From the IMG/VR virus record IMGVR_UViG_3300024270_000013, positions 48,575-112,574 of that record: a stretch of DNA of 64,000 nt; one strand, given 5' to 3'. Shown piece by piece: positions 9,201 to 63,575 of the stretch (positions are counted from its first letter, which is position 1; the number at the start of each line of letters is the position of its first letter). The position numbers were made by a program, and so were the translations under genes. The notes under the pieces were generated by a model. The model was not told the DNA's origin. It made no database searches and was given only the letters and a program-made list of their open reading frames with translations. The stretch is from a virus.

Positions 9201-12200
9201 ACGTAGTGGGAATATTTAAAAGCAAATATGGCCGAAGGAGTATCTGCGGGTAATGTAGATCAATCTGCTTTAATTGATTCATTTAATGAAATGATTAAAG
9301 CTGGTAACATGACTAAAGAACAAATTGAAGCTGCATTAGCTGGATTAAATGTTAGTGCTAATGTTAAAACTAATTATGTTTAGCAAACTACCTCTGTCCC
9401 AACTACTATTACTGATGAATATTTAGAAAAACGGGGAGAACAAACTTATACAGTTGGCTATTAGGAAGATGGTACTCCAATTACAGCTCAATTACCAATG
9501 TATCGTAAATATACTTAGACTTATAGCGGAGAACCAGTAGAAGTTAATGGATGGGTTCCTCAATATACAATTGAAGGTACTGAAGGTGATGGAGATGTTA
9601 CTACAGCTTTTACTTCATTACCTGCTCCTCAAGTAAGTCAATCTTCTACCACAACTGGCAAATAGAGTGGAGGTTCTAAACCAAAGAAAACTTCAGAGGC
9701 TCGCCAAAAAAAATCTGATACGGTTGAACGCTATAAACCAGTAAATGATAAGCTTGATGATATGGCTGATGCTTTGGATGATGCATCTAAAGCGGCCGAT
9801 CGTTTATGGGGTACTGCTCGTATTAATCAAATGGAAAAGATTAATTCGATTTTAGAAGATGAGATTGAATTAATTAAAGAAAAAAGGTCTGAGGCTGAAG
9901 CTTATTTAAAGATTGATAGAGATGATTTAAATGCGGCTGCCGCTGATTTAGGGATTTCTTTCAATTATCAAGATGGCAATATTGCTAATTATGAGTCTCA
10001 AATGACAAAATTGTATAATGAGAGAGAAGCTCTATTAGACAGTTTTGGTGAAGAGATTGATGATACTGAACAAGAAACATTAGATGCTTTTGATAAGAAA
10101 TTAGATAGACTTAAAGAAGCTATTACTCAATACGATGAAACTCGTGAATTAATTGAAGATTTAGAGAATGAAGAATAGGATAAACGCAATGAAATTCAGG
10201 ATAATAATTTTGAAAAATTAAATTATGCTCTAGAAATTGAAATACAGTTTAATGAAGATGATTTGGCTATGATTGAATATCATATGAATAAAATGGAAGA
10301 CGATTTCTATTTAATGGCTGAAGCTTACGCTAAACTTAGTGAATCTAGTTCTATTTATGAAGAAAATCTTCAATTACAAAGACAATACGTTGCTGACTTA
10401 GAAGAAGCTTATAAAAATGGTGAAATCTCTCAAGCAGCTTATATTGAAGGATTGCAAAATGCAAAAGATGCCACTATGGAAAATGCTCAAGCACTAATCG
10501 ACTTAGACCGTCAAATGATAGAGTATTATGGAAATACTTTAGATGCGGCAAATGAAGAGCTAAGTAAATATACTGATAAAATGGAACATCTTACTTCTGT
10601 TTTAGATCATTATTCCAGTATTATGGATTTGTTAGGTAAGAAACAAGATTATGCAGTTATGGGTTCTATTCTAGAGGGATAGGCAAAAACTACTCGTAAT
10701 GAATTAGAAGTAGCACAGGCAACATATGCAATGTACGACGCTGAGGCAAAGCGATGGAAAGAGCAAATGGATAGCGCAATTGAGGGCTCTGATGCTTGGA
10801 AAGTATATAAGGCCAATTGGGAAGCTGCGCAAACTGCAGCTAATGATGCTCAAGATAATATGCTTTCAAAAACTGAAGCATGGATTGAAGCAATGAAAGC
10901 TGTTGTTGAAAATAATATGGCTGAGTTAAATCAAACTTTAGAAGAGACTTTAACAGGAGGCTCTGATTTTGATACGATGCTTGAATCTATGGAGCGTGCA
11001 AGCAGTCTTCAAGAAGAATATTTAACTACTACTAATTAGATTTATGAAACTAATAAATTAATGCGTACCGCACAACAAGAAATTGATAAAACTCAAAATA
11101 CTGTGGCAAAACGCAGATTAACTCAATTTATCCAAGAGACTGAGCAATTATAGAATCAAACTAAATTGAGTAATTATGAATTAGAAATTTAGTAGGCGAA
11201 ATATGATTTGCTTTTGGCAGAAATTGCTTTAGAAGAAGCTCAAAATGCAAAATCTACTGTTCGCCTATAGCGTGATGCTGAAGGTAATTTTGGTTACGTC
11301 TATACCGCAGATCAAGATAAAGTTGCTTAGGCTTAGCAAGAGCTTGAAGATGCTCAAAATTCACTATATAATATTGGACTAGAAGGTGCAAACGATTATA
11401 GCTAGAAATATGCTGAAACAATGCAAGAAATGTATGATACTTTAGCAGAATTGCAATAGGCATATTTAGAGGGTGAAATTGCTAACGAAGAGGAATATAA
11501 TGCTAAAATGGCTGCAGCAAAATAGCATTATTTTGACAAGCTAAAAGATTATTCTAGTCTTTATCAAGTGGCTTTAACCACTGATAGTAGAGTAATAAAT
11601 GATGCATGGAGTTCAGATTTTAATGATATGATTTACAAAACTGGTGAGTTATAGAATGCTGTAAATCAATATACTAAAGATAGTGCAAATACTTTATTGG
11701 GATGGTCAACAACTGTTAAAACTGCGCTAGATCAAACTGGTTTAGATAAAGTTGATAATCAAGTATTATCTATTACTATTGAAAGTGATAAATTAAAAGA
11801 GTCTTTAATTGGAAAAGATGGTAAAGGTGGAGTTGTTAATGCTATTTAGGCTGAAATTACTGAAGTTGGTAATTTAACAGGTGCTTATGCATTAGTTAGA
11901 GAACAAATTCAAGGATTAATTGGAGACCATGAACTATTAATAGGCGAAATTAATTAGACTCAAAAGGTTGAAGAAGAAGCTGCTAAACAAGCAAATGCAA
12001 ATGCTGAAAATGCTACTGACAATACTACTACAAATTAGCAAACACAAAACGATAGTGCTGAAAGTGAAAATAGTGCAGCTAGCTAGTATGATACAAGAAC
12101 TAAGGCAGGAGTCGCTTTAGCAATTATTAGAAATGCAACTGCGGCCGGTTGGGGTAACGGTTCTACGCGAAAAAAGAATCTTGAAGCTAAAGGATTTAGT

Positions 12201-12650
12201 TATAATGAAATTCAAGGTTTGGTAAATACTTATTTTGGTAATTCTTAGGCGTTAATTGCTGCTAATGGTATTAATTGGCCTAGCGATTATAGTAAGTATA
12301 TTTTCTCTCGTTTTAATACTGGTGGATATACTGGTTCTTGGGGATCTTATGGTAAACTTGGTATCTTAGATGAAAAAGAATTGGTTTTGAATTAGGGCGA
12401 TACAGCTAATTTCTTGGCTAGCATGGAAGTTTTAGAGCGTATTTTGTAGGTTATTGATTTACATAGCATGAATGCGCAACTGGGTGGATTATTATCTAGT
12501 CCTTCTTATGGAGGAAATAATAATGAAACTACAATTGAATAGAATGTTCATATCGAAGCTAGTTTCCCTGGCGTCAGTGATAGAAATGAAATCGAAGAGG
12601 CATTTAATAATTTAGTAAATCAAGCATCTCAATACGCGAATCGTAAATAA
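3282..12650 (+). CDS. Tail tape-measure protein, about 3122 aa. A single frame read through roughly 70 in-frame TAG; ends at TAA 12648-12650.
   Basis: Region 3630-4450 matches the TP901-type tape-measure core (…YYADVMTALGAATASSTDEIAGGLEKFAAIGKTIGLSYEYAASALATITSN…) and continues across TAGs. There is an internal hydrophobic segment at 5784-6140, extensive coiled-coil sequence, and the C-terminal motif FSRFNTGGYTGSWGSYGKLGILDEKELVLNQGDTANF. All ORF-track pieces are in frame 0 and separated only by TAG. The 11039-12650 stretch was read directly and contains only TAG interruptions. TAG TAG pairs give QQ in Q-rich coiled coils. Confidence 0.85.
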
Positions 12651-12652
12651 AT

Positions 12653-12695
12653 TTTAGGGTGGGTTATGAAAACATAACTCACCCTTTTTCTATTT
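12653..12695 (+). terminator. Rho-independent terminator after the tape-measure gene
   Basis: AGGGTGGGTTATGAAAACATAACTCACCCT hairpin followed by TTTTTC. Confidence 0.7.
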
Positions 12696-12711
12696 GGTCT
12701 AAATAAAAAAA

Positions 12712-12740
12712 TTGACTTTTCTAAATTTTTATGATATAAT
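12712..12740 (+). promoter_or_regulatory. Near-consensus sigma-70 promoter: TTGACT, 17 bp spacer, TATAAT.
   Basis: -35 at 12712-12717 and -10 at 12735-12740. Followed by RBS GAGAGAAAGGAGA and ATG 12770. Confidence 0.65.
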
Positions 12741-12769
12741 AGATTAAGGAGAGAAAGGAGATTGGTTAC

Positions 12770-15700
12770 ATGGACAATAATCATACTGATTATTTAGAGC
12801 AGTTGTTTTAGGGTGTAGATATCCTTATTGATCGAAAGCTCAAAGATATATCATTTGATACAACTATTATTTGTACTATTGTTGATGCAAGTGATAGTAA
12901 AAATGGTAGATATCAAGTAACTGATGGTACCGTTCGTTTTGAAGCATATAGTGATAATGATAAATACAAAGTGAATGATTAGGTTCGTGTTTCTATTATT
13001 AAGGGTGATCTTACAAAAAAGAAATTTATTGTTGGTAAATATGTAACTGATAATTACACTTAGCCAATTACATATGTATCACCTTTAAATACAGTAGTTA
13101 ATATTACAGGTAATTTAATTCCAAATGATAAATAGGGAATGAGCATTATTGCAAATGGAAAAATTACTGAAGATGATCCTGACCCAAAACATCATTTAAT
13201 TTGTTGTATTCCATTAGCTGATGGTGCTTTTGCTGATCTTCAAACTAATGGTATTTATAATACAATTACTTTAAAAGCAGATTTTAAAACTTTTTTACAT
13301 AATTATAATGTAAAATCTGGTACATATGGTTTATAGTTAGATTTAGTTGTAAAACCAAACAGAAATAGTACACGCAAACTTTTAAAAACTGCTTATTTAG
13401 AAAGTTCTGAAATGTTTGGTAATCCATATGCATTTTCTATTGCTACTTAGTAGACAAAAATTTTTGATATTGGAACAGTTGGTATTATTACAGATATTTT
13501 ACTGACATTATATCAAGATGGTAATTTTTTTGATATTAATGGAAATAAAATTGAACCTGCTTTAATTGGCAATATTACTGTAGAAAATATTGAGCTAGGA
13601 TTTGGTAGCGATTTAGTTGCAGTTGGTGATAACACTTTAAAAATTTATACTGAAAGTGATCCACAATATAAATATTATGGTCATAATCCATATCCCTATG
13701 ATAAAAAATTAGGCTATCCTAATGAAATTAATAAAGTTACTAATGAAAAGCGATTGGGTTTATTGTGGTATAATAAAAATGATTTAAATGAATATTTAGG
13801 TTTTAGTGACGGATTATATGACCCTGATTATGATGAAATAGAATATTTGAATTTAGCAAAAGAAGATACTAGATTAACTGCTTAGATGGGTAGAGAAGGT
13901 ATCCCGACAGACCGAGATAGTTTAAATCTTGCTGCTAATCTAGAAGAAGCTATTCCTTTAATTACAAAGGCAATGAAAGTAGTCACTTAGGATTTAACAA
14001 CTACTTTAAGAGCTTTGCGTTCTTAGGTAGAAGGAGTTACTACTTTTACAAATGAAATTGATAAATTAATTGCGCTTGCGGCCGCCGGAGGGTCCGATTC
14101 TTTAGCTGCCCTTGCCGCAGATATTGATGACAATCTTGAGCTTTTGGAAGCACAATATAAGGGTGTATTAGCACATGGTGTAAAAACTCAAAATCTTGAA
14201 TGGGCTAGCGATAGTGAAAAAATAAATAACTGGAATAGTAAATGGGATATTCACTATGGAAATAATATAAAGATTGCTTTTAAAACTGTGCGACAAAAGA
14301 TTGAAGCGTTATTAAATAATGTCATTAAACCAGGAGTGTATGGAGATGCTGCCGCATATAGTGGATATGCAGGAGTTTATGACACTTATAAAATACGATT
14401 GGAACGAGTGCTAAATACTTTGGAAGAGTATTTAGATCCAGAAAGTAAATATGATTTTCCAATTGATGTTTTTAATGGTGTTGATTATAATACTTTACAA
14501 TCTTACAAAAATACAAAAACTCAATGGAAATCTTATATTAAGAAAGATTTAAGTGCTTATGATAATAAGTATTGTATTTATTGGTTTAGATATGATAAAG
14601 ATTATGTTAATAATGAAGTTCATTAGTTTTTATCTAACGGTTGGCGTAGATTAACTGAACTTCCTCGCAATATAGGTGTTCCTGGTAAAGGTGAAAAAAT
14701 TGATGGTAAAACTTATAATGCAATTAAACTCGCTCCAGGAGAGGGATTAATTGATGTTATAATGAGATTTAATGAATCTGAAGAAAAATACAAAGCAGTA
14801 TTATTTTATAATCATGCAATGTATGAAAGCGATGAGTTAATTTTTACTAACGAAGATCGGATACCCGAAACCGCAAATATTGAAACAGGAGATTTATTAA
14901 TCTTTGAACATATTGATAAATCTCGCAATGATTATCAATGCTATAATTTAACTAATTATTTAATGGATAGCGCTGACGCAAGCCATTTACGACAAATTCG
15001 AGTTAAATATGATGGTTTATTATATGGTGATGAAATCCTTGCTAGCGGAGGTATTTATTGGTACGTTCCTATTACTTCAACTATGTTAACTGTTAATATT
15101 GATGAGCTTATCGCTCATGGATTTGTCACTGATTATGAAATGAATCCAAAACCACCTTATTCAAAAGCTGGATATATTTGTTTTTATAAATAGATTTAGG
15201 GAGAAAAAGATGAGTCTGGTAAATGGACTTTCTTGGATGGTAATGGATTTGATACAAGAGATTTTTGGTATAAAATTAAACCGTACTATGATGCTTCCGC
15301 AAGTATTAATTCTATTAAATGTGAATTTAGAGCTGCTACTGATAATGATATTGTAAGTGGCGAAGAATTTTTTAATTTTGGAGTAATAGGTAGCAATGGT
15401 ACTAAATATACTTTATCTATTAATCCTGCTACAAATTAGGTAGCAACTTTACCCACTAAAAATTTAATTTTAGATGTATCTTTAAGAGATTTTAATAATG
15501 AAGAAATTGATCTCAGTATTGGAGCTAATGGAGTCGGATAGACTTCTGAATTTACTTCCTCTTGGTTGTTTAAATTAAATGGCAATGCTCCTACAAAAAT
15601 TGAAGATGGAAATAAAGTTATTGGTTTAACTGCTTTTGGTGGAAGTTGTGGTATTGTTAAGGCAAGTACGAAATTTCAGTTAAGTGCGGCCGGGGCTGCT

Positions 15701-18700: not shown

Positions 18701-18751
18701 TTAGTTAACATAAAAAAAAATAAAAACTGAGATAAAGGAGATTTTTTTCTT

Positions 18752-19120
18752 ATGAAAATGACAAATAATGAAATTTATACTTATACTCGTCAGTTAATGG
18801 ATGCATTCCAGGATGGCGAACAGAAGTTACCTATTAAGATTAACTTCTATCTTCAGAAGAATAAGAATACTCTTCTGAGTTTGGCACAGGATATTGAAAA
18901 GGCTCGTTTAGAAATTGCTCAGACTTATGGTGTATTAGATGAGTCTGGCGAGCAATATCAGATTCCTAATGATAAGCTTGCTGAGGCTAGCAAGGAATTA
19001 GAGGATTTGTTTAATTTAGAGCAGGATGTTAATATTTCTAAGATTAGTGTCGATGCTTTAAGTGATGATTTGACTCTGACTACTGCTCAAATGGAAGCTT
19101 TAATGTTTATGATTGACTAA
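18752..19120 (+). CDS. Hypothetical protein (122 aa), no TAG.
   Basis: RBS GAGATAAAGGAGA; clean ORF ending at TAA, with a terminator downstream. Confidence 0.55.
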   Translation: MKMTNNEIYTYTRQLMDAFQDGEQKLPIKINFYLQKNKNTLLSLAQDIEKARLEIAQTYGVLDESGEQYQIPNDKLAEASKELEDLFNLEQDVNISKISVDALSDDLTLTTAQMEALMFMID

Positions 19121-19127
19121 TATATGT

Positions 19128-19165
19128 AGTAAGGTGTCAGAAATCTGACACCTTACTTTATTATA
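19128..19165 (+). terminator. Rho-independent terminator
   Basis: TAAGGTGTCAGAAATCTGACACCTTA hairpin followed by CTTTATT. Confidence 0.6.
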
Positions 19166-19186
19166 AGGTGAGAAAGGAGAACTAAA

Positions 19187-24176: not shown

Positions 24177-24189
24177 GGAGGGATGAGAT

Positions 24190-48731: not shown

Positions 48732-48797
48732 AAAAAACTTTATCCCCCTTTCTACTTCTCTAACGATACTAAAGAAGCAGATAGGGGGATTATCTCA

Positions 48798-49824: not shown

Positions 49825-49826
49825 AT

Positions 49827-50071: not shown

Positions 50072-50072
50072 A

Positions 50073-50342: not shown

Positions 50343-50343
50343 C

Positions 50344-51299: not shown

Positions 51300-51338
51300 A
51301 TTATAACCCTCCTTTATCTCATTTATATAAATATTATA

Positions 51339-51821: not shown

Positions 51822-51870
51822 ACGAACTTACTCCTTTCTAATAGCGTAGCTAATTCGTAGTTAGCTACAA

Positions 51871-54075: not shown

Positions 54076-54162
54076 ACTAATTACCTCCATTATAAAATAC
54101 TATATCTTGTGGAGAGCGTAAAAACTCTCTACAAAATATAGCGTTTTATCTTGATCTATTAA

Positions 54163-54754
54163 TCAATGTCGTCCTTGCGCGAGCATGTCCTCGATCTGGC
54201 CTGCAATCTGCTCGGCGTTCGCATAGAAATCGTCAAAAGTCTCGTTGACAACTTCGGTGTAGTCAAAATCAATATCAGCAAAATCTTCTTCATCAGCATT
54301 GAAGCGACGAACAATCTCTTTAACGTCGGGATTTTCCTCTCGACTAAGCTGACGATATAAGCGCTGTTTATCAGAAACAGTTACCCAATAAACAGTGACT
54401 TCACAATCCGGCCGGTCAAGCAACTGCCGCACACCCGCAGGATTGAAAACACCGATATTGATAATGCCATCGCTGCGTACAGACTCATAACTAGTACCAT
54501 ACCACCAATTGTTGAAATTAGTAAATTCCAACATTTCATCATTCATAATTTTCATTGCAAAATCATCGGGATGATAGTAATAGTAATTGATGCCGTGAGC
54601 TTCGCCCTCTCGCATTGGTCTACTGGTACAGCTTACGATCTCGTGGACCTCAGAAATAATTTTCTTTTCAGCGAGTAATTTTAATACCTATTTCATCAAT
54701 GAGTCTTTACCAGCGCCGCCTTTACCCATAAAAAGAACTATTTTATACATTTTC
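54163..54754 (-). CDS. Guanylate-kinase-like nucleoside monophosphate kinase, about 196 aa, with one in-frame TAG.
   Basis: P-loop GKGGAGKDS, then TAG, then the TSRPMREGEAHGINYYY guanylate-kinase motif. RBS GAGGAGG before ATG 54754. Confidence 0.65.
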
Positions 54755-54964
54755 ATTGTCCTCCTCAAACTCATATTGAATTTTTCCGGGGACTTCATGC
54801 GCCCAGAAGGTAGCACGACCATCGCAGTCGGGGTTACTGCAACGGAATGGGTATTGCTCGGGGTAGGTAGAATATACCATCCCCGTGCTCACCATTTTAC
54901 TACCACACTTATCGCAGAACGCTTCTAATACATATGCTTTTTTTACATATCTCTTAGTCAACAT
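54743..54964 (-). CDS. Small zinc-ribbon protein (73 aa)
   Basis: CDKC…CSNPDC C4 arrangement. RBS AAGGAGG. Overlaps the 3' end of dnaE. Confidence 0.45.
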   Translation of the reverse strand: MLTKRYVKKAYVLEAFCDKCGSKMVSTGMVYSTYPEQYPFRCSNPDCDGRATFWAHEVPGKIQYEFEEDNENV

Positions 54965-57900
54965 CTTCTGCAGTGCCTCCTTGATAACGACTATCTTGTA
55001 ATACTAAGTCACCATTATCCAAGATCTCATTGATACGATATAGCTGATGTCCGCCAGTAGAAGCATACTTCTTAGAAACAAAATCATCACCGCTGCGGAT
55101 TCCCGTTACGACGATCATATTACCGCGGTTGAACCAACTCTTCTCAACGACGTGCTTGACGCCATCTGCGCCACGCTCGGAGATCTGCTTATCGAACATC
55201 GCAAAATATTCTTTTCTGAATTTGACATTTACAACACCTGTTGTTGTCAAAATGGTAACTGTACTCTTAGTCTTATTCTTTGCAATACAAGTTCCGCAAA
55301 TACGATTCAAATGAAAGATATGAATGTCTTTGCCTCCCTTATGGAATGTCTTTTCAATGATCGGATCTTCTGGCAATAGGTTGAAATCAACAAAGCCATA
55401 TTTATCATTATTGACATTTTGCAATTCGTGGTCATGATAATAGAAGCACAAGACTTCCATCTCCCACGCAGAGATAGTACCCTTCGCATATTTATTCCAA
55501 TCTTCCATGAAGATTTCTGTATTCAGCGCATTTAAGATTGTATCTTTTTCTGCGGCGATCCACTTTCTGAATACATCCATATGCTTCTGGTATACATTAT
55601 CCCAAGCCTTAGTTTTTATATACCAAGACACATTATCTGTTGTCATAAGATTTTCGCAATCAATCTCCTGCAAGAAAGCGATTGCTCTCGTATCAAGACT
55701 ATACATATCCTTATAAGCATACTTATCAGCCTTAGTAATTGCCTTCAAATATCTATTGAACTCATATACTCGACGAGCGAGAATTTGCTCTTCAGTTTTT
55801 TCAGGCAATAATCCGTGCTTGATAAGTCCACCCATATTTTGTAAGGTGATACGACTCTTCTTATCACAAGTCTCCCAGATATACCAAGCCATTACAAATT
55901 GACGCTCTTCCATATCGTCAAATGCGCCACCCTTGATAAGGGCAATCATAGCTTGCTTACTGGGTCTAACTCTATTCAAGAAATCTTTTGGAGAGCTATA
56001 AGGTCTGTTTTCAATAATGCTGGCAATCAAATCATCGCCCACATTCAACATACCTTTCAATCCAAAAAGAATTCGATTATTTTCTACATCTGGAGCAAAT
56101 CCAAAATCTGATTTATTAATGTTTGCCAAGCTAACTTTAATTCCTGCACCAGTGATATCACCGATTGCTTTGGCAATTTTTCCATAATCAGTTGAACCTC
56201 CTGCTTCTTCATCAGTTGCACCACTGTTTACAATCAAACAAGCAGTATTCCAATAAATTGGATTGAAATTCATAACAAAGTAAATTGATTGAATACCAAC
56301 AAAAGAATAAGGCAGAGAGTGGTTCAGACTAAATGCATATCCTAACTGGGGTGCAATTGCATTTTCCCAGAAATAATTTGCCGACTGAACCCGGTCAAAT
56401 TTACTATAGACCTGTTCGCGCAATTCCGGAATCTTACTCATTTGCTTCTTACCAACAATCTTTCTCGCATTATTGGCTTCACCTAATGTGAAATTTGCAA
56501 CATCCATAAGTAATTCCATCATCTGCTCCTGGATAGCACAACAACCCCAGTATTGGTCACAATGCTTATGCATTAGCGCAATCATATTTTGATCCAGACC
56601 AGCTTCGTGCATTTCTCGATCAAATTCTTCCAATCCTCGCTTTTGGATACGAACATATCTATCTTGCTGAGATTCCTTGCCTTTTTCAGACATAAGTCTC
56701 ATCATTGCGTTCGCCGCAGTCATCTCCATAGGATTCTTTGGTTTCAACTTTTTTGCAATAGCTAATCCAACGCCAGTGCTGAACTGGAACACATCCAGAA
56801 CATCACCGGCCGCAAGATGCTCCCAAATGCGGGGATCAGTTGTATCAATCACTTCTGGATGAATATACTTATTATATAGATTACGCAAACCAATATCTTC
56901 AATTACTTTATCTGCGGTAAGTAATTCAAAACATTTGATAATCTTATCTGAAATTTCAGTTACCAAGAAGTCATACTTGGTATCACCTGCGGCCTCTGCT
57001 TTATGCAGGTCATAGCAGGTAATCAAATCTCCACTTGGAGTTCTCATAAATGCCGCAGTTTCAAACGGGTCACTACCATATAAGATAACACCCGAAGCGT
57101 GAGAAGAACGCTTATTTACTAGTCCTTCAATTGACTGAATAATAGCCAATAGACCAGGATAGTTATTTACTTCTCGAATGAATGGAGCAACGGGTTTTCT
57201 ATCTTTCTCCTCATTGCCGTTGATAACATCACTAATCGGCCATAAGAATCCACGCTCTTGGGGGATTAGAGAAGACATGTACTGGGCTTGATCGACATCG
57301 ATTCCATCTGGGAAATCCTCGCTTCGATAACCGCGGCAAGCCGTGAGTACAGCTGATTTCGTTCCTTCTGTTCCGAAGGTTGCGACCTGGATAAGTCCCA
57401 ACTCTCCACGCTCTTTACGAATTGCTTCAAAAATTGCGGGTCGTTTTGATGGAGCGAGGTCAATGTCAATATCGGGCAACTCGGCTCTCTCCTTATTAAG
57501 GAAACGCCAGTAAGGTAGATTCCATCTGATGGGGTCGAGCTGCGTGATGCCCAAGAGGTAGTTAGACAAAAATCCTGTGGCCGAGCCTCGACCTGGGCCA
57601 ACAATTGAGCCACACTCCCAGAATAGGTCGATGTAATGCTTGAAGGTGTTGAAATAGGCGAATAGACAGTCATCTAATTTCTCTCCAATATCTAAAATAA
57701 CATCAGCTTCGGTTTCTAATCTCTGCCAATATTCAACTTTATCTTGTAAGCCTTTTTCATTTAGGCTCTTCGCGCACTCATATAGCCAATATCTCTCTTG
57801 GACGTTACCATCAACTAACAAATGCGCTAAACATGGATAGAACTTATTTAGGTTCCAATCGATTTCATATGGAATGTACTCTTGAATTTCTCGTTCAGAA

Positions 57901-58847
57901 TGAGTTGGCAGAGGAATCTTAGGAATCATCTGTTTACGCTCTAAAGAGTATGAAGTATATTGTTCACCCAATTTACGAGAGTTTTCTAAGATTTCAGTGA
58001 CAATATAATCATTTCCAAAGCAATGATGCAATAGTTTATAAACTTCATCATATGACATCAAATGAGCAAACTCATAGAAACTATCAACCTCACGCTCGCC
58101 GCCCTTAGAATTTAGATAAGACTTATGGACGTATCTATCTTCCTTGGTGAGATAGTGAGAGTCAGTACCAACAATCAAAGGAATATCATATGCTTTTGCA
58201 ATACGATATAACTTGCGGTTGGTGATACATTGATCCTCAGCGGTTGAAGGCGCACATTCAATATAGAAATCATTACCGAACACATCAAGACAATACTTGA
58301 TGAAATCGCAAATTTGATTATAAAACACTCCTGCGGAAATCTTATCATTGACATTTTCAGCGCAGGCCATGTTGTATGCGGCGGTGGATAACTCGCCACC
58401 CATACAGGCGGTTGAAGCAATTACATGCCCCTTATACTTCGCCATAATGGTTGCCAATTCGTCTTTGGTAATGGGCACGCGCTCCATACCTCGATCGACA
58501 TAGGAATGATACCAAGCAGTTGAGCTCAATTCACGCAGAGCCTTGTGTCCGATTTCATCCTTGGCAGTTAGAATAAAGTGATAATATTTGATACCACTCT
58601 CTCGTTTATCTACTAAATAAACCTCATTGCCTAAAACAATTACAAAATCGGGATACTTCTCCTTTATCTTCTAAGCATACTGATTGACTTCCATATGTCC
58701 GGATAGACATTCGTGGTCTGTAATCGCAATGCCGGAAAGACCCAATTCAATTGCTTTGTCAATGAGGTCCTTAGGTCTATTGATACAATCGAGTAAGCGG
58801 ATATTCGAATACATTGTATGGTTGTGAATATTGAAATATGTTCCCAT
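54954..58847 (-). CDS. dnaE: DNA polymerase III alpha subunit (DnaE-type), about 1297 aa, with one in-frame TAG in the PHP domain.
   Basis: ORF 54954-58529 carries the Pol III alpha core (…GPGRGSATGFLSNYLLGITQLDPIRWNLPYWRFLNKERAELPDIDIDL…). The N-terminal PHP domain (MGTYFNIHNHTMYSNIRLLD…ITDHECLSG…) lies upstream in the same frame, separated only by TAG 58670-58672. ATG 58847 is preceded by GAAAGGGATAATCGA. Confidence 0.85.
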
Positions 58848-58882
58848 TCGATTATCCCTTTCAATTTGATTTCTTATACTAT

Positions 58883-58911
58883 ATTATACCAATTTTTTTC
58901 TCTATTGTCAA
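58883..58911 (-). promoter_or_regulatory. Perfect sigma-70 consensus promoter on the minus strand: TTGACA, 17 bp spacer, TATAAT. It lies upstream of dnaE.
   Basis: Reverse complement: TTGACA at 58911-58906, a 17-nt spacer, and TATAAT at 58888-58883. Overlaps the 3' end of the helicase gene. Confidence 0.65.
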
Positions 58912-60083
58912 CTATCTCGCACGATAACGAGCTTTTCTTTGGCGCGCGTAGCAGCTGTATATAGCCACTCTGCATGGTGTCCACCACGCAAAAATTCTTC
59001 AAAAACAAGAACTTTATCATATTCACTACCCTGCGCCTTATGGGTAGTAATACAATAACCATAGTCGAATTCACGGGGGCGCCAAATCTTAGGGAAGCGC
59101 TTCCAGTTCTGCGCGGTTACGGTCGGCTCACCAGTAGTGAGTAATCTGTAATCCATATTTACACCACGGAAAATCAAATCCTGTGGAGAGTTTTCAACAT
59201 CATCGTCTGAATAATCATCAGACCAAAAATCGCAAACCATCATCGGCCGCAAATAAGGATTGTTATTCAACAAATCAATCTTAGTAAGTGTGCCAATAGT
59301 GCCATTCACCATTACATCGCCCGCTTCACTCGGATGATCCCAGTCATTCCGCAAACAAATAACCTTATCTCCTACTATTGGAGTCGGATCGTCAATGTCA
59401 TGTAAATACTTACGCATAAGATGATTTACCGTACGGCGTGTCTCATTCTTTGCTACAAGGATCTGGTCGGCCCAAGTATACATACCAGACACAACATCTT
59501 TCTTATCAATGATTTGCACTTCGTTTCCTCGGAAGAGTTCGAGAGGTTTGCCGTCTCGAATATCCATAGTCAAACGAATGATTTCACTCTCCTGGGCTTG
59601 GCGCATAATCTCATCCAAGAAAATGTGCGGATGGTCGAGCACTCCATTAGACTCACCAATAGGAGGAAGCTGGCCGGGGTCGCCAAGAGCAATAACATGA
59701 ATACGATGTGAAGTCAACAAATCCCAAATCTCTTTTGGAAGCATTGAAATTTCATCGACAACAATCAACTTATATGGATAGTCCAGAGGTCTACGAGGTT
59801 TGTGATAGAATGTTCCATCATTGCGAGGATAGGACTGATATAACAGTCTGTGTGCGGTCATGGCATTCTCGCATCCTTTTTCACGCAAAACCTTTGCGGC
59901 CTTGCCTGTGAATGCGATATAACAAACCTCTGCGGGATATAGACCCAGCGCTGCAACGATAAACTTCACAAGTGTACTCTTACCAGTACCAGCGTAACCG
60001 GCGATACAGGTCCAGGGTTCATTGTTCTTATAGCGGGCGACCGCAATCTTTAATCCCTCTTCCTATTTAGCAGTAAGTACCAT
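58908..60083 (-). CDS. SF1 RecD/Dda-like DNA helicase, about 391 aa, with one in-frame TAG near the N-terminus.
   Basis: Walker A AGYAGTGKST just upstream of ORF 58908-59969, reached across TAG 60064-60066. Also VVDEISM, GDPGQLPPI and TTHKAQGSEYDKVLV motifs. Start ATG 60083 lies 6 nt after GGAGG. Confidence 0.75.
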
Positions 60084-60354
60084 TTTCATCCTCCTTTGGA
60101 TGGGCGTGAACCAGCTGTTCTAATGTCATATAAAAATGCTGCTTACGACCATTCATACGCCGACGCGCGTCAACGGGGTCAATATGATCGGCTCTAGACA
60201 TATACGCAGCCAATTCATCACAGACTTCGGCATATCTAAAATAGATACTATCAAATCCAAAATCTAAACGGTCTTTTACCAATTCATCGAAATCTTCTCT
60301 TGGTAATCTTACAATATCCAATTTTTCTTTCAGACTTTTTGCGTAATCCGTCAT
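60067..60354 (-). CDS. Hypothetical protein (95 aa)
   Basis: RBS AAAGGTGAG. No TAG. Confidence 0.45.
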   Translation of the reverse strand: MTDYAKSLKEKLDIVRLPREDFDELVKDRLDFGFDSIYFRYAEVCDELAAYMSRADHIDPVDARRRMNGRKQHFYMTLEQLVHAHPKEDENGTYC

Positions 60355-60402
60355 TTTATTCTCACCTTTTTATTTTTATTATACCAAAATATTTTATATA
60401 AA

Positions 60403-60845
60403 TCAATTCAAAAACATATTGGTCTTGTCTAAGTTTATAATATCATCAGACCAACCAATATCTCCCAAAATAAGAAAATCCTCACTGGGAACAATTCGAT
60501 TTGAAATTTCTAAACCGCCTTTTTGATTTGAGTTTTCGGTCTTGGCGTCCAATGCCGATCGGAGCTCGTCTATTTGCATTTCTACCAAGTCTGTCCGAGC
60601 GCTATTAGCGGCATCCGCACAATCCACATCATACCTCAAATCACTCATTGAATCCTTTATGGCAGTGATTTCAGTAGTCGCCCAATCCATCTGTTGCATC
60701 AACTCTGATAACTTACGCAGAGCTTCTGTCATTTGCTATGTGGTACAGCCGACTTGGGCCACCACTGAACTCAAACTTATTGTAGCGTCTGATACGCTTG
60801 GTAAGTTTAGCATAATATCATTTTGTATCTATTTCAAAACTGCCA
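60403..60845 (-). CDS. Hypothetical coiled-coil protein, about 147 aa, with 2 in-frame TAG.
   Basis: ATG 60845 lies 8 nt after AGGAG. ORF-track piece 60403-60732 extends upstream in frame across TAGs. Confidence 0.4.
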
Positions 60846-60859
60846 TCTTTCCATCTCCT

Positions 60860-60905
60860 ATAAACAAAAATAAGGGTTATATAGGGGCGAACCCCTATAT
60901 AACCT
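60860..60905 (-). terminator. Rho-independent terminator on the minus strand
   Basis: GGTTATATAGGGGTTCGCCCCTATATAACC, a 13-bp stem, followed by CTTATTTTTGTTT on the minus strand. Confidence 0.7.
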
Positions 60906-60911
60906 ATTTAC

Positions 60912-61802
60912 TTACCCTACGAAATACTCGTAAGCTCGTCTTGCGTATCCTCTACGAGGCGCTCTATGTCCTTCACCACAACGCTCGAAATAACAAGCGA
61001 AGGCGTAGGCACATTCTTCCGGAGTGTCGGCTTCCATGATTTGCTCGAGTTGCCAATTTGTAACTTGTTTGGTAACTCCATCAGTGCCGTGCAACTCATC
61101 GTGCATAAAATTGAGCTGATCTTCAATACTTGGATTTTCTCCGTAAATTGAAAATAGTTGACGCTTGCGGCCGCCTAGCCACTGAATCATACCGAAACCA
61201 CTTGAGCTATGTACGTCCCAATCGAGATCGGAAGTCCAGCAACCGCCGCACTCAGCCATCATATTACCCATAATACCGGCGCACACAGTATCACTATAAC
61301 CCAGCTCATTCTTCATATAGAGCCAGACTTGAGTAGCAACTGGATACTCGGCCGCACGCTTCTCCCATTTGAGTTTCTCTTCCCAAATTGAGAATTGCTC
61401 TTGGTAATACTCAACTTCAATTGTTGCATTTTCAATATCGGTTTTAGCTAATACTACTGCGGGATGGTCGTCCGCATAACCGAGAGTTAGGAAACCTTGA
61501 TAGATGGTTTCAGTAAGCTCCTGGCGAGCAATAGCTTCTTCCAATAGAGAAGTAGCTTCATCATATGTAGTAGGTTCAACACGCTTGAACTCCACGGTAT
61601 CTAATACAATAACTACCTCTTCTGGTTCAGTAGACTCAGTATCTACTGGAAAGGTGGTAGTCTCAGAAGGGATGTAATCTTCCGAAAAAGTAGCAACTGG
61701 ATTGGTGTCTGCGACCACAGTACCTGCTGCATATGCAATAACACTTAGAGTGCTAATAAACATGGCTATAATCAACAATACACCGATAATTTTCTGTTTC
61801 AT
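60912..61802 (-). CDS. Secreted lysozyme-like/peptidoglycan hydrolase-like protein (296 aa). Candidate Sec-dependent endolysin or virion-associated lysin.
   Basis: N-terminal signal peptide (MKQKIIGVLLIIAMFISTLSVIAYAAG) and a Thr/Glu/Pro-rich linker. The C-terminal domain carries a DTVCAGIMGNMMAECGG motif resembling phage tail-lysozyme-like domains. The family assignment is from memory. Confidence 0.5.
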   Translation of the reverse strand: MKQKIIGVLLIIAMFISTLSVIAYAAGTVVADTNPVATFSEDYIPSETTTFPVDTESTEPEEVVIVLDTVEFKRVEPTTYDEATSLLEEAIARQELTETIYQGFLTLGYADDHPAVVLAKTDIENATIEVEYYQEQFSIWEEKLKWEKRAAEYPVATQVWLYMKNELGYSDTVCAGIMGNMMAECGGCWTSDLDWDVHSSSGFGMIQWLGGRKRQLFSIYGENPSIEDQLNFMHDELHGTDGVTKQVTNWQLEQIMEADTPEECAYAFACYFERCGEGHRAPRRGYARRAYEYFVG

Positions 61803-61835
61803 AATTTCCTCCTAATATTACTATCAGGCCGTCAA

Positions 61836-63575
61836 TTAGAAATAGTATTTCTGTTCTCCTACAATTTCGTAATCTTCAATAATAATTTGTGGACTTACAA
61901 TACCATTCCATATGTTGCGTTCACACTTGCCCACAACATTGATGGTTATACAACCAGTTTCAGAGTGTAATTTTTCATACTCCTCTTGTGACGACTTGAA
62001 TTTGATTAAACTCGTACCATTTGGTAAGGTTATCTTTAGAGTAGGACTCTTGTCTGGTGACATAAGAACAATATTATCTTTATGTAGATTGATATGTTCG
62101 ATGGCAACCAGAGGTTCATCTACTCCTTGGCCCCATAAAGATTTGAGTTCAGCAATTTCCACAATGTCTTTTCCTCTGAAATCATCACCGTGGAAAATGA
62201 AATCAACCTTATAACAAGGGGTAAAGTCAAAATCTGCCAAAGCGTGATTGGAGTAATTTACAAATTGAGTAAAGTTTGCATCAGTGATACCAACACCCAA
62301 TGCGTTGGCGTGACCTTCTGCATACATTACCAATTCACTATCTTTCAAAAACTCACGGAGGTTATCAAATTTCGATTTATCGTATCCTCTTCCTGAACCC
62401 TCCCAGCCATCTTCTGTCTTATTAAGTAGAAGTACTGGGCGTTGATATTTCGCCATTAGCTGGTTTGCAATCAAACCAGTAAGGTTTTTATCGGCCGCAA
62501 AAGTATCTAATTTGATAGCCAAAATCTTATTCTCTAACAGATTTTTCTCTTTGATTATGCGTTCAATTGTCTCCAAGGCTGCGTCTCTTGCTTTTGTTTG
62601 CCTATTTTTGATGTTAGTGCAATTACGACAAGCCTGTTCTACTCTCGTCTCCTGCTGACCCTTACATCCTCTTTTGGTTGATGGGACTAGTTCATATCCC
62701 CGATAGTCAAGCATAGACTCGAATAGCATGAGCTTTTCTTCCTGCGTTCCCATTCTTATCGTGGCATTTACATAGGGAGCAATATAAAAAGCTACTCCAA
62801 TAGGACTGATACCGTCTTTCAACGAATATGCTTGTTTGTCTACCATTCCCTTGAAGTATGGATTGCGAATATTCTCGAGTCCTCGCGTGATAAGGTGTCT
62901 CGTTTCAAAATCGCGTAGATCCATCATGTCGGCCACCATTCCGAGTGCGACCAAATCTAAAAACTGATCTGCATAATCAACATTCATAAGCTCGTCGATA
63001 TAGGAACAGAATTTATATACCATTCCGACACCAGACAAAGACTTAGTGGGATAATCACACAGCTGATTGTTGATAATACAGGCGTGTTCTGAGATACTAT
63101 CTGCTTCGTGGTGGTCAATTACCAGCACATCCACGCCTTTTTCAGCCAATGTCTTATGCTCTTCATAATCATTGGAACTTGAGTCGGGCGCAATCACTAA
63201 CTTGACATCTGCGGGAACAGTATCAAGAATAATGCCGTGCTGTTTCCCCGTATGGATACGATAATATACATTGTTCTACACAAAACCGGGGAATAGACAA
63301 TTCAGATAGTTGATAAGGGCGGCCGCACTTGTATAACCATCACAGTCGCTATCAATCTGAATTAGAACTTTGTCATTTTGTGCGATATGTTTGATGAGAA
63401 GTTTTACACCCTCTTGGATATTCATAAGAATTTTTGGGTCTAAAATATCTGCATCAGTAGTATGTAGATAGTGTTCTACATTCGCCGGTACAATGCCCCG
63501 GTTGGCAAGTACCTATTCGACCGCTGTTAGCTATTTCTCCAGCGGGATATTAGGTACAATAAGTTGATACTCCAT
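61836..63575 (-). CDS. recJ: RecJ-like DHH-family single-strand DNA exonuclease, about 579 aa, with 3 in-frame TAG in the N-terminal part.
   Basis: DHH motif VIDHHE. Upstream, in frame across TAGs, the DHH motif I …IQIDSDCDGYTSAAAL…. RBS AGGAGG before ATG 63575. Confidence 0.7.

What the first reader, a model, noticed from the sequence alone, without database searches (positions are those of the whole stretch)
12130..63326. Strong over-representation of the palindrome GCGGCCGC and related GGCCGC/GCGGCC words in an AT-rich genome
GCGGCCGC occurs at least six times: 14078, 27227, 33674, 36493, 61167 and 63319. Fewer than about 0.1 occurrences are expected at this base composition. GCGGCCG or GGCCGCA words occur at about 20 further sites, for example 12140, 15686, 19916, 22448, 26485, 43253, 56810, 59244 and 62493, on both strands and in different reading frames. 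Some encode Ala-Ala-Ala and others Gly-Gly-Arg or Ser-Ala-Ala, so protein-level selection seems unlikely. The positions were read by eye. A DNA-level role is plausible, for example a modification or methylation target, a recombination (Chi-like) signal, a packaging-related motif, or a nucleoid or anti-restriction signal.
Basis: seen in the sequence. Interest (0 to 1): 0.5.

Follow-up and report, generated by a model that had tools for sequence, protein, structure and literature searches.

The report
Enriched asymmetric GC word in phage

Summary
GCGGCCGC occurs exactly six times at the stated coordinates, against 0.09 expected.

The palindrome is not the unit. The signal is an asymmetric word family. 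Its core is CCGCA/GCCGCA (127 and 59 copies, against 58 and 17 when synonymous codons are shuffled within genes). Its longest form is CGGCCGCA (14 copies against 0.7). Five of the six NotI sites are this octamer plus one matching base. In the window plus 20 kb of flanks, 16 of 20 CGGCCG sites carry the CA flank on one side only, and none on both.

The words sit mostly in Ala-Ala codon pairs (GCG-GCC, GCC-GCA). They are also enriched in other frames and equally in both orientations, so the cause lies in the DNA, not in protein or translation.

The window is a TAG-recoded, SPbeta-like phage of about 181 kb. Relatives down to about 52% polymerase identity share the bias. Bacillus phage Goe13 and phage phAss-1 do not. 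Close relatives keep the same density, but individual sites turn over.

The mechanism is unresolved. I favour, weakly, a sequence-specific enzyme that reads duplex DNA (HIP-like methylation or repair). Chi-like, primase-site and neutral-bias readings remain open. Host DNA could not be obtained.

The parts
12140..12147 (-). octamer CGGCCGCA (+ strand reads TGCGGCCG); sense codons ACT GCG GCC GGT (Thr-Ala-Ala-Gly) in the 3134-aa tape-measure ORF
14077..14084 (-). octamer CGGCCGCA, overlapping the NotI site at 14078-14085 (TGCGGCCGC); sense CTT GCG GCC GCC (Leu-Ala-Ala-Ala)
15685..15692 (-). octamer CGGCCGCA; sense AGT GCG GCC GGG (Ser-Ala-Ala-Gly)
19918..19925 (-). octamer CGGCCGCA; sense GAT GCG GCC GGC (Asp-Ala-Ala-Gly)
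26483..26490 (-). octamer CGGCCGCA; sense ATT GCG GCC GGC (Ile-Ala-Ala-Gly); last octamer in this orientation before the apparent switch
27227..27235 (+). NotI site at 27227-27234 plus octamer CGGCCGCA at 27228-27235 (GCGGCCGCA); sense GCG GCC GCA (Ala-Ala-Ala)
33674..33682 (+). NotI site plus octamer (GCGGCCGCA); a different frame: GGC GGC CGC (Gly-Gly-Arg)
36493..36500 (.). the only NotI site with no octamer (gagGCGGCCGCcaa); sense GCG GCC GCC (Ala-Ala-Ala)
43260..43267 (+). octamer CGGCCGCA; sense CCG GCC GCA (Pro-Ala-Ala); reads CGGCCGTA in 4 of 5 aligned close relatives
56807..56814 (+). octamer CGGCCGCA inside the DnaE-type polymerase gene (- strand; sense GCG GCC GGT). The same Ala-Ala is GCC-GCA in 4 close relatives, so a word of the family is kept in the opposite orientation
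59244..59251 (+). octamer CGGCCGCA in the Dda-like helicase gene (- strand); sense TTG CGG CCG (Leu-Arg-Pro), a third frame
61166..61174 (-). octamer CGGCCGCA plus the NotI site at 61167-61174 (TGCGGCCGC on the + strand) in the lysozyme-like gene (- strand); sense GGC GGC CGC (Gly-Gly-Arg)
61349..61356 (+). octamer CGGCCGCA; sense GCG GCC GAG (Ala-Ala-Glu)
62492..62499 (+). octamer CGGCCGCA in the RecJ-like gene; sense GCG GCC GAT (Ala-Ala-Asp); the only octamer kept in 5 of 6 close relatives
63319..63327 (+). NotI site plus octamer (GCGGCCGCA) in the RecJ-like gene; sense GCG GCC GCC (Ala-Ala-Ala)
1..64000 (.). window-wide background of the core word: CCGCA 65 and TGCGG 62 on the + strand (127 against 58.5 expected); GCCGCA/TGCGGC 59 against 17.3; 17 CGGCCG sites against 3.1. 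All lie in coding sequence, and they are denser in the GC-richer 40-64 kb part

Best explanation
SHOWN. The NotI palindromes are by-products of a DNA-level enrichment of one asymmetric GC-rich word family, and that enrichment is shared by the phage lineage. The minimal core is CCGCA, the strong core is GCCGCA, and the longest form is CGGCCGCA. The 3' part (GCCGC-A) is constrained and the two 5' bases are loose. The words are written into synonymous positions, mostly in the Ala-Ala codon pairs GCG-GCC and GCC-GCA. They occur equally in both orientations and in several reading frames. Relatives keep the same density (2.6-3.2 CCGCA per kb, and one octamer per 4-8 kb) while individual sites turn over.

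INFERRED. The force acts on DNA sequence, independent of orientation, not on protein or mRNA, and it depends on density, not on position. I think the most likely agent is a sequence-specific DNA enzyme of the lineage or of its host clade, whose sites are kept by weak selection or regenerated by biased repair. The closest model is the methyltransferase-linked 'highly iterated' words of cyanobacteria (HIP1), here with an asymmetric recognition site.

I put about 0.85 on the descriptive part and about 0.3 on the named mechanism. The confidence field below (0.3) refers to the mechanism.
For: Sharp specificity under the synonymous-shuffle null. CCGCA is 127 against 58.5 (z = 11.2), while every single-base variant is at 1.5-fold or less. 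The 4-mer CGCA is 341 against 231.

Enrichment rises with match length. GCCGCA is 3.4-fold, and CGGCCGCA is 14 against 0.71 by shuffle and 0.61 analytically. That is 14 of 158 synonymous opportunities used.

Asymmetry. 16 of 20 CGGCCG sites have one CA flank and none has both (p = 0.005). The deviation profile shows positions 3-8 nearly fixed and positions 1-2 loose.

The cause is at the DNA level.
- Several frames and both orientations are enriched. GCGGCC in frame 0 is 14 against 2.2. GGCCGC in frame 2 is 11 against 2.7 and in frame 0 is 7 against 3.1. CGGCCG in frame 0 is 2 against 0.28. GCCGCA in frame 1 is 9 against 2.2. TGCGGC in frame 2 is 22 against 7.
- The sense and antisense counts are 31 and 28.
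- The + strand counts are 65 and 62, and even in all 8-kb bins.
- GC-rich third positions in neighbouring codons are not correlated (0.003), so local GC patches are not the cause.

Lineage-wide.
- GCCGCA-type words are the top hexamers in nearly all 35 IMG/VR relatives down to about 52% polymerase identity.
- They are absent at 46-47% identity.
- They are absent in Bacillus SPbeta-like phage Goe13.
- They are absent in TAG-recoding phage phAss-1.

Density is kept with turnover in six relatives at 77-82% nucleotide identity. Where the amino acids are conserved, CCGCA is identical in 106 of 185 cells against 87.4 expected, and GCCGCA in 61 of 104 against 45.9. At one Ala-Ala site the codon pair switches between GCG-GCC and GCC-GCA.

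Precedent: HIP1 words are linked to methyltransferases and to a proposed repair ratchet.
Against: No methyltransferase or Vsr-like gene was found in the window or its flanks. A motif scan of all fetched loci also found none. That scan is an unvalidated heuristic, and about 97 kb of the genome was not seen.

The T-for-C neighbours of the words are not specifically depleted, which a very-short-patch type repair would predict.

The octamer is at least tenfold sparser than HIP1. Conservation of its sites is barely above matched controls: 8 of 19 against 5.6 for the octamer, and 2 of 6 against 2.2 for NotI. HIP1 sites are clearly conserved.

Most of the octamer excess follows from pentamer frequencies (order-4 expectation 7.7 against 14), so a short-context neutral bias could suffice.

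Site density follows local GC content and is not evenly spread.

No host DNA could be examined, so a host-imposed signature cannot be told apart from a phage-intrinsic one.
Confidence: 0.3

Rival explanations
1. Neutral lineage signature. A context-dependent mutation or repair bias of the replication and repair machinery, either the phage's own DnaE-type replisome or the host's, raises these pentamers. The octamers and NotI sites follow by overlap, and nothing reads the word.
For: Order-4 Markov expectation explains most of the 8-mers: 7.7 of 14 for CGGCCGCA and 8.1 of 12 for GCGGCCGC. The bias is orientation-independent and seen in all frames. Density tracks local GC content and coding opportunity. 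Sites mostly turn over and are only 1.2-1.3 times more conserved than matched windows. The bias tracks polymerase relatedness: it is present in relatives down to about 52% polymerase identity and absent at 46-47% and below.
Against: The specificity is sharp. All five positions of CCGCA are needed, and the neighbours sit at 0.6-1.5 times expectation. This is unusual for polymerase-type context effects, which depend on one or two neighbouring bases. The octamer still exceeds the order-4 expectation 1.8-fold. GCCGCA retention is above the controls (z about 3), while other GC-rich words fall below expectation. The avoidance of the double flank (p = 0.005) is not predicted.
Confidence: 0.2
2. Chi-like signal. 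The word (TGCGG, extended to TGCGGCCG, or its complement) is recognised by the host's AddAB/RecBCD-type nuclease. It has been accumulated to protect or recombine phage DNA ends, as in phages P1, LLS and MD8.
For: Phages are known to accumulate the host Chi octamer to one per about 1.9 kb, with 7-of-8 variants also common. P1 carries Chi on both strands, 31 of 50 on one strand. Firmicute Chi words (AGCGG, GAAGCGG) share GCGG with TGCGG. The cultured relative Goe13 is visibly shaped by its host's Chi, with AGCGG at 54:2 on one strand over 121 kb. The octamers show an orientation switch between 26483 and 27228 in the extended sequence (<<<<<<>>>>><>>>>). A best-split score this high has p = 0.006 for 16 random orientations.
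Against: The 5- and 6-mers have no polarity: 65:62 in the window, and 477:547 in 25 relatives. The sense bias of the octamer (10:4) is what coding opportunity predicts (0.40:0.21). Only the ordering within the + strand gene block is odd (p about 0.02, my own hand estimate, not a tool result), and many unrelated words show similar splits. The phage encodes a Sak4-like annealase, a RecJ-like exonuclease and a RuvC-like resolvase, whereas Chi-rich phages typically lack recombination modules. The core is conserved across deeply diverged phages. The host's Chi is unknown.
Confidence: 0.15
3. Priming sites for the phage's own primase. The template 5'-(G)CCGCA-3' would direct a primer pppGCGG(C), with the 3' A as the uncopied 'cryptic' base. 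An AT-rich genome has been enriched for a GC-rich start site on both strands.
For: The lineage carries its own DnaB-like helicase, primase (PHROG 47, E = 3e-33) and DnaE-type polymerase. DnaG-type primases read a 3'-anchored trinucleotide with a cryptic 3' base, extended to pentamers. Phage SP6 primase uses 5'-GCA-3'. The word has the same architecture, with a constrained 3' end and a loose 5' end. Its density is about one per kb per strand. The bias tracks polymerase relatedness: it is present in relatives down to about 52% polymerase identity and absent at 46-47% and below.
Against: There is no precedent for strong enrichment. T7's own primase pentamers are only 1.0-1.6 times expectation in T7 (GGGTC 94 against 57-74; TGGTC 141 against 125-139). 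SP6 shows no enriched NNGCA word. Sites are not evenly spaced and follow GC content. The primase-like protein has no Pfam match. Nothing was tested biochemically.
Confidence: 0.1
4. Translational codon-pair preference. Ala-Ala is simply best translated as GCG-GCC or GCC-GCA, for example by alternating tRNA-Ala isoacceptors, and the DNA words are a side effect.
For: 21 of 31 places are Ala-Ala. GCG-GCC is 14 against 1.9 and GCC-GCA is 21 against 6.2 in the Ala-Ala codon-pair table. 13 of 17 CGGCCG sites are in the frame nCG GCC Gnn.
Against: The reverse-complement words are enriched in their own frames. GGC-CGC is 7 against 3.1, CGG-CCG is 2 against 0.28, GCCGCA in frame 1 is 9 against 2.2, and TGCGGC in frame 1 is 3 against 0.41. 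The sense and antisense counts are equal (31 and 28). Other GCS-GCN pairs are not raised. Ala-Ala dominates because it is by far the commonest peptide that can hold the word.
Confidence: 0.05

Closest known systems
HIP1 (GCGATCGC), the highly iterated palindrome of cyanobacteria, and its alternate HIPs
   Same: A GC-rich octamer with a CG...CG frame, strongly over-represented. It is placed in coding sequence regardless of frame. It is not explained by peptide or RNA function. It is linked to DNA methyltransferases and to a proposed repair ratchet, and its function is still debated.
   Different: The unit here is asymmetric (CGGCCGCA), and the full 10-bp palindrome is absent. The octamer occurs once per 4-8 kb instead of about once per kb. 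Site conservation is close to neutral, unlike HIP1. No cognate methyltransferase was found. It is a phage lineage, not a cellular phylum. GCGGCCGC and CGGCCG do not appear anywhere in the main text of the 97-genome HIP survey.
Chi octamers accumulated by phages (P1, LLS, Pseudomonas phage MD8)
   Same: An asymmetric 8-mer far above expectation in a phage genome, with 7-of-8 variants also common. It lies inside genes and is not explained by codon usage. In P1 it occurs on both strands.
   Different: Chi in LLS, MD8 and Goe13 is strongly polar (20:3, 32:0, 54:2), whereas the core word here is 65:62. This phage has its own recombination genes. The host nuclease and its Chi are unknown.
DNA uptake sequences (USS of Pasteurellaceae, DUS of Neisseria)
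   Same: By statistical behaviour this is the best match (own knowledge). They are asymmetric words found equally in both orientations, at about one per kb. They are placed where coding allows, and their density is maintained by a drive rather than by site conservation.
   Different: No sequence-specific uptake is known for the likely Gram-positive host clade, and a phage does not need it. The USS core AAGTGCGGT shares TGCGG but is not enriched here (6 against 6.8).
Primase recognition sites of phages (T7 5'-GGGTC/TGGTC/GTGTC-3'; SP6 5'-GCA-3')
   Same: A 3'-anchored short word ending in GCA, needed on both strands, in a phage that has its own primase.
   Different: The known sites are at most 1.6-fold enriched in T7 and not enriched in SP6. 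No assay exists for this primase.
Word biases left by very-short-patch repair next to Dcm methylation in E. coli
   Same: A strand-symmetric, modest over-representation of an enzyme's target word at the 4-5-mer level.
   Different: That process depletes the T-containing precursor words. No such specific depletion is seen here.

Membership tests
Chi (RecBCD/AddAB regulatory sequence) | a short asymmetric word of 5-8 nt, over-represented beyond composition and codon usage | tested here: met
   CGGCCGCA is 14 against 0.28 (dinucleotide shuffle) and 0.71 (synonymous shuffle). CCGCA is 127 against 58.5.
Chi (RecBCD/AddAB regulatory sequence) | orientation bias relative to replication or packaging direction | tested here: not met
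   CCGCA:TGCGG is 65:62 and even in all bins. In 25 relatives it is 477:547. The octamer pattern is bipolar, but it is largely what gene direction predicts. The comparator Goe13 has AGCGG at 54:2.
Chi (RecBCD/AddAB regulatory sequence) | the same word is frequent and skewed in the host chromosome and is recognised by the host nuclease | not testable with these tools
   The host is unknown. The only lead is a relative's 176-kb contig binned with an Acutalibacteraceae MAG. No host chromosomal DNA was retrievable.
Chi-rich phage class (Zheng et al. 2025) | the phage lacks its own recombination module | tested here: not met
   A Sak4-like annealase, a RecJ-like exonuclease and a RuvC-like resolvase are present.
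HIP-type highly iterated palindrome | the palindromic octamer itself is the hyper-abundant unit (15-300-fold, about one per kb) | tested here: not met
   GCGGCCGC is 17-fold over the codon-aware null, but occurs only once per 10.7 kb. It is explained by its 5-mers. Five of the six sites are the asymmetric octamer plus one base. TGCGGCCGCA occurs 0 times.
HIP-type highly iterated palindrome | a methyltransferase specific for the inner hexamer is encoded in the genome | tested here: inconclusive
   None was found in the 84 kb read or in the fetched loci. The motif scan had no positive control, and about 97 kb of the genome was unseen.
HIP-type highly iterated palindrome | sites are conserved between genomes above the neutral expectation | tested here: not met
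   NotI is 2 of 6 against 2.2, the octamer 8 of 19 against 5.6, and CGGCCG 9 of 25 against 10.5. Only the core GCCGCA is modestly above expectation (61 of 104 against 45.9).
DNA uptake sequence (USS/DUS) | an asymmetric word, equal on both strands, about one per kb | tested here: met
   (2-3 CCGCA per kb in all relatives).
DNA uptake sequence (USS/DUS) | matches a known uptake word, and the host has sequence-specific uptake | tested here: not met
   AAGTGCGGT with up to 1 mismatch is 6 against 6.8. Host competence could not be tested.
Restriction-site avoidance or restriction-modification target | palindromic targets are depleted in the phage | tested here: not met
   CGGCCG and GCGGCCGC are enriched. 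True avoidance is seen for other palindromes: ACGT 0.44, CTAG 0.66, CATG 0.72, GATC 0.74, GAATTC 7 against 21.5, ATCGAT 4 against 18.5.
Primase recognition site | a 3'-anchored trinucleotide with a cryptic 3' base, and a phage-encoded primase | tested here: inconclusive
   The architecture fits and a primase-like gene is present. The control genomes T7 and SP6 show little or no enrichment of their known sites.
Conserved peptide motif | all sites encode one homologous peptide | tested here: not met
   The flanks and the proteins differ at every site. The enrichment persists with the protein sequence held fixed.

The most novel reading that the evidence does not exclude
This lineage of TAG-recoding, SPbeta-like gut phages has tuned the silent sites of its whole genome to supply an asymmetric recognition word (GCCGCA, extended to CGGCCGCA) for one of its own DNA enzymes. 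The enzyme could be a modification enzyme or the lineage's primase. That would be a phage-borne, non-palindromic counterpart of the cyanobacterial HIP words. The word is supplied in either orientation, and the perfect 10-bp palindrome is avoided.
Probability: 0.2. Interest if true: 0.7.

Novelty: new variant of a known kind. Interest (0 to 1): 0.5.

Why it matters
Short words that genomes keep at a set density, such as Chi, uptake sequences, HIP1 and KOPS, have each led to a DNA-processing machine. Here such a word is sharply defined, shared by a large uncultured phage lineage and absent from its cultured cousins. It therefore marks a specific protein-DNA recognition event that can be sought directly, through methylation calls, the 367-aa primase-like protein, or the host's AddAB nuclease.

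If the word proves to be host-imposed, it would give a sequence handle for assigning hosts to these recoded phages, and possibly the first Chi-type word for gut Clostridia.

There are practical consequences too. The finding shows that synonymous sites in these genomes are not free, which affects codon-based and dS-based analyses. It also shows that rare-cutter sites (NotI, EagI) are unexpectedly frequent in an AT-rich phage.

Tried and rejected
- **Chance or composition.** Rejected.
- **Local GC-rich patches.** The correlation of residual GC3 between neighbouring codons is 0.003.
- **Avoidance of GCWGC pushing Ala-Ala into GCS codons.** GCWGC is only 20% low, and only two specific codon pairs are raised.
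- **Conserved peptide or repeated element.** All contexts differ.
- **Very-short-patch signature.** There is no specific T-neighbour depletion.
- **Family-wide trait of SPbeta-like or TAG-recoding phages.** The bias is absent in Goe13 and in phAss-1.
- **Haemophilus-type USS.** Not enriched.
- **A uniform polar word like AGCGG in Goe13.** None was found. The best candidates (TTAGGG, ATTTAGG) are TAG-codon contexts.
- **Bipolar orientation as a replichore-like boundary.** Many unrelated words give similar splits inside the + strand gene block, and coding opportunity predicts the 2:1 sense bias. I kept this only as a weak hint.
- **Testing polarity in relatives of the structural module.** There are no close homologues in IMG/VR.
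- **Host k-mer comparison.** The single genome-contig scan and the NrdD homologue search returned only phage contigs.
- **Microdiversity.** Contigs carrying identical proteins are 100% identical in DNA.
- **Methyltransferase search.** Pfam and PHROG scans of window and flank genes, plus a motif scan, found none.
- **Precedent for primase-site enrichment.** T7 and SP6 show little or none.
- **Literature.** There is no report of GCGGCCGC over-representation in a genome.

Full report
**Observation.** GCGGCCGC occurs exactly six times, at 14078, 27227, 33674, 36493, 61167 and 63319. Dinucleotide-preserving shuffles give 0.09, with a maximum of 1. The window is 35.5% G+C.

Merging all GCGGCC, GGCCGC and CGGCCG hits gives 31 places.

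Markov expectations for the both-strand count of 12 are 0.13 (order 0), 0.99 (order 3), 8.1 (order 4) and 14.2 (order 6). The excess is real, but it is generated at the level of 5- and 6-mers and not by the palindrome as such.

**What the window is.** It has no close DNA match among 50,697 deposited phages. It encodes a DnaE-type polymerase, NrdD and NrdG, a RecJ-like exonuclease, a Dda-like helicase, dUTPase, a RuvC-like resolvase and a tail tube protein.

Genes appear broken under the standard code. Reading TAG as sense raises total ORF length from 17,956 to 26,672 aa. It also yields ORFs of 3134, 1987 and 2255 aa holding 59, 27 and 14 in-frame TAGs. The replication genes hold 0-3 each. No tRNA lies in the window.

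Contigs carrying identical proteins come from goat-gut-type JGI samples and ENA assemblies, the longest at 181,006 bp. They show SPbeta-type genes (YomU, YonB, YonD, YomW, YorF, YorH), and some gene callers used code 15 on them.

The closest cultured polymerases are from Bacillus SPbeta-like phages, at 39% identity. A published group of TAG-recoding, SPbeta-related gut phages (phAss-1) has a 3149-aa tape measure and predicted Clostridia hosts. It is a different lineage. All frame assignments below use code 15.

**What the enriched unit is.** I shuffled synonymous codons within each gene, which keeps every protein and each gene's codon usage. Against that null the top words of the whole window are:

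| Word | Observed | Expected |
|---|---|---|
| CCGCA/TGCGG | 127 | 58.5 (z = 11.2) |
| CGGCC/GGCCG | 66 | 28 |
| GCCGCA/TGCGGC | 59 | 17.3 |
| GCGGCC/GGCCGC | 36 | 9.2 |
| CGGCCG | 17 | 3.1 |
| CGGCCGCA | 14 | 0.71 |
| GGCCGCAC | 8 | 0.39 |
| GCCGCACA | 7 | 0.25 |
| GCGGCCGC | 6 | 0.36 |

Every single-base variant of CCGCA is at 0.6-1.5 times expectation. GCCGC is enriched only when followed by A (inference from the counts).

An analytic count finds 158 places where the proteins would allow the octamer in either orientation. The expectation is 0.61 and 14 are used. For NotI there are 45 places, an expectation of 0.36, and 6 used.

To get more sites I joined the window to 20 kb of identical flanking sequence, giving 83.7 kb. 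In that stretch, 16 of 20 CGGCCG sites carry the outward flank CA on exactly one side and none on both. TGCGGCCGCA never occurs (p = 0.005). Positions 3-8 of CGGCCGCA hardly vary, while positions 1-2 do.

Five of the six NotI sites are the octamer preceded by G (GCGGCCGCA or TGCGGCCGC). Only 36493 is not. The palindrome is therefore a by-product of an asymmetric word.

**Protein, translation or DNA?** 21 of the 31 places are Ala-Ala. In the Ala-Ala codon-pair table, GCG-GCC is 14 against 1.9 and GCC-GCA is 21 against 6.2. Other GCS-GCN pairs are not raised, and GCT-GCT is as expected.

Ala-Ala dominates because it is the commonest peptide that can hold the word. The reverse-complement words are enriched in their own frames:
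- GGC-CGC is 7 against 3.1.
- GGCCGC in frame 2 is 11 against 2.7.
- CGG-CCG is 2 against 0.28.
- GCCGCA in frame 1 is 9 against 2.2.
- TGCGGC in frame 1 is 3 against 0.41, and in frame 2 is 22 against 7.

GCCGCA is on the sense strand 31 times and its complement 28 times. On the + strand CCGCA:TGCGG is 65:62, and even in every 8-kb bin. Residual GC3 of neighbouring codons is uncorrelated (0.003), so local GC patches are not the cause. The cause acts on DNA sequence regardless of orientation.

**Distribution among relatives.**
- 35 IMG/VR loci were found through the polymerase, at 46-80% amino-acid identity. They carry 24 NotI sites against about 2 expected.
- GCCGCA is 4-6 times over the order-2 expectation in nearly all of these loci.
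- CCGCA-containing words are the top hexamers down to about 52% identity, and they vanish at 46-47%.
- CGGCCG is a top word in only some sub-lineages. Other sub-lineages favour TTGCCGCA, CTGCCGCA or AAACCGCA. The core is therefore shared and its 5' extension varies.
- A 176-kb relative binned with an Acutalibacteraceae MAG has the bias.
- Goe13, a Bacillus SPbeta-like phage, does not: GCCGCA is 2 against 3-5, and CGGCCG is 0.
- phAss-1 does not either: CCGCA is 117 against 116-139.

**Turnover.** At 72-78% nucleotide identity, CCGCA is kept at the same position in 34% of cases and GCCGC in 40%. GC-rich pentamers in general are kept in 22-24%.

Six closer relatives were fetched through NrdD variants. 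They are at 77-82% nucleotide identity, and 61-71% identity at third positions of conserved codons. They keep the same density: 45-72 CCGCA, 2-5 octamers and 1-3 NotI sites per 17-22 kb. The positions, however, are mostly different.

Conditioning on conserved amino acids and matching codon phase gives:

| Word | Identical cells | Expected |
|---|---|---|
| CCGCA | 106 of 185 | 87.4 |
| GCCGCA | 61 of 104 | 45.9 |
| Octamer | 8 of 19 | 5.6 |
| NotI | 2 of 6 | 2.2 |
| GCWGC (control) | 29 of 66 | 34.4 |
| CCGCT/AGCGG (control) | 13 of 45 | 22.6 |
| GGCGC/GCGCC (control) | 22 of 50 | 27.9 |

At 56807 the same Ala-Ala is GCG-GCC in the window and GCC-GCA in four relatives. A word of the family is kept while its orientation flips. 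The force therefore maintains density, not particular sites.

**Polarity.** In the 83.7-kb extended sequence the octamers read <<<<<<>>>>><>>>>. The switch lies between 26483 and 27228, not at the transcription switch near 48 kb. A best-split score this high occurs in 0.6% of random orientations.

Coding opportunity alone, however, predicts a 2:1 preference for TGCGGCCG on the sense strand (0.40 against 0.21 expected; 10 against 4 observed). That accounts for most of the pattern. Only the ordering inside the + strand gene block is left (p about 0.02, my own hand estimate, not a tool result). Many unrelated words give equally clean splits there. The 6-mers that are not part of octamers are not polar. 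I treat polarity as unproven.

**Candidate mechanisms.**

(a) *HIP-like, enzyme-linked word.* HIP1 and alternate HIPs are GC-rich octamers tied to methyltransferases, with a proposed repair ratchet and debated function. Orientation independence, sharp specificity and density maintenance fit this reading. Asymmetry would imply a non-palindromic recognition site. Against it, no methyltransferase was found in 84 kb or in any fetched locus. There is no T-neighbour depletion. Site conservation is weak.

(b) *Neutral bias.* Pentamer frequencies already predict 7.7 of the 14 octamers, and density follows GC content. The five-position specificity and the avoidance of the double flank are hard to get from simple context effects.

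(c) *Chi-like.* Phages P1, LLS and MD8 accumulate the host Chi, and P1 does so on both strands. TGCGG resembles Firmicute AGCGG and GAAGCGG. In Goe13 the host Chi AGCGG is 54:2 on one strand regardless of gene direction, along with SRS-like G-rich words. The word here is not polar, however. The phage also has Sak4-like, RecJ-like and RuvC-like genes, unlike Chi-rich phages.

(d) *Primase site.* The lineage has its own primase-like protein. The word ends in GCA, which is the SP6 primase trinucleotide. It has the 3'-anchored architecture of T7 sites. T7's and SP6's own sites are barely enriched, though.

(e) *Codon-pair translation.* Rejected, by the frame and strand symmetry above.

**Verdict.** The real feature is an asymmetric word family (core GCCGCA, longest form CGGCCGCA). 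It is specific to the lineage, independent of orientation, and maintained in density.

The decisive data could not be obtained here. They are the host chromosome, methylation calls, the remaining 97 kb of the genome, and a substitution model over the many close relatives.

Noticed in passing
window 1-64000 (e.g. 3249-12650, 12740-18700, 30700-37464): TAG is read as a sense codon (code 15). There are 188 in-frame TAGs and giant ORFs of 3134, 1987 and 2255 aa. TAG is concentrated in the structural genes upstream of about 24-25 kb and is nearly absent from the replication genes. No suppressor tRNA lies in the window.
   Followed up: partly
window-wide: TAG codons are followed by a purine in 132 of 188 cases. 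The strong strand bias of TTAGGG (17:1) and ATTTAGG (26:1) is explained by the codon context T-TAG-GG.
   Followed up: yes
window-wide: Classical restriction-type palindromes are depleted relative to the synonymous-shuffle null: ACGT 0.44, CTAG 0.66, CATG 0.72, GATC 0.74, GAATTC 7 against 21.5, ATCGAT 4 against 18.5. This contrasts with the enriched CGGCCG.
   Followed up: partly
L049+L050+L046 (Bacillus phage vB_BsuS-Goe13, MT601274, 1-121363): The B. subtilis Chi pentamer AGCGG is 54 on one strand and 2 on the other across the whole genome, regardless of gene direction. AGGGGA, GGGAG and GAGAAGG (SRS-like) are polar in the same way. The controls TGCGG (25:25) and GGCGG (24:21) are not.
   Followed up: partly
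window 56807-56814 versus L059-L063: The same Ala-Ala dipeptide in the polymerase is GCG-GCC in the window and GCC-GCA in four relatives. A word of the family is retained, but in the opposite orientation.
   Followed up: yes
the window plus its flanks, 83.7 kb (window coordinates -9708 to 73973): The perfect 10-bp palindrome TGCGGCCGCA never occurs, although 16 of 20 CGGCCG sites carry one CA flank (p = 0.005). At Ala-Ala-Ala sites preceded by T, the third codon is GCC, not the otherwise favoured GCA.
   Followed up: partly
L036 5555-8187 (just right of the window end, reverse orientation): The DnaB-like helicase gene appears to be split by a GIY-YIG/HNH-type homing-endonuclease ORF. The order is a DnaB_C part, then the endonuclease at 6802-7482, then a 139-aa DnaB C-terminal fragment. 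This suggests an intron or intein-like insertion.
   Followed up: no
L055 (Acetatifactor muris DSM 23669 contig NZ_JANJZD010000026, 41597-63216): A phage-like region whose NrdD is 67% identical to the window's. Total ORF length rises from 9705 to 15644 aa if TGA is read through. It may be a TGA-recoded element in a cultured isolate.
   Followed up: no
proteins P0001-P0120: More than 100 distinct NrdD variants at 87-99% identity occur in ENA and Logan assemblies (sample names suggest gut metagenomes), on contigs up to 207 kb. This is a large, microdiverse population of the phage lineage, although the surrounding DNA is only 77-82% identical (mosaic).
   Followed up: partly
window 43541-44302: A 253-aa protein next to the tail genes has a glycine-rich hydrophobic stretch (GWGRGGFGGFGGG) and many cysteines. 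It has no family match. It may be lysis- or membrane-related.
   Followed up: no
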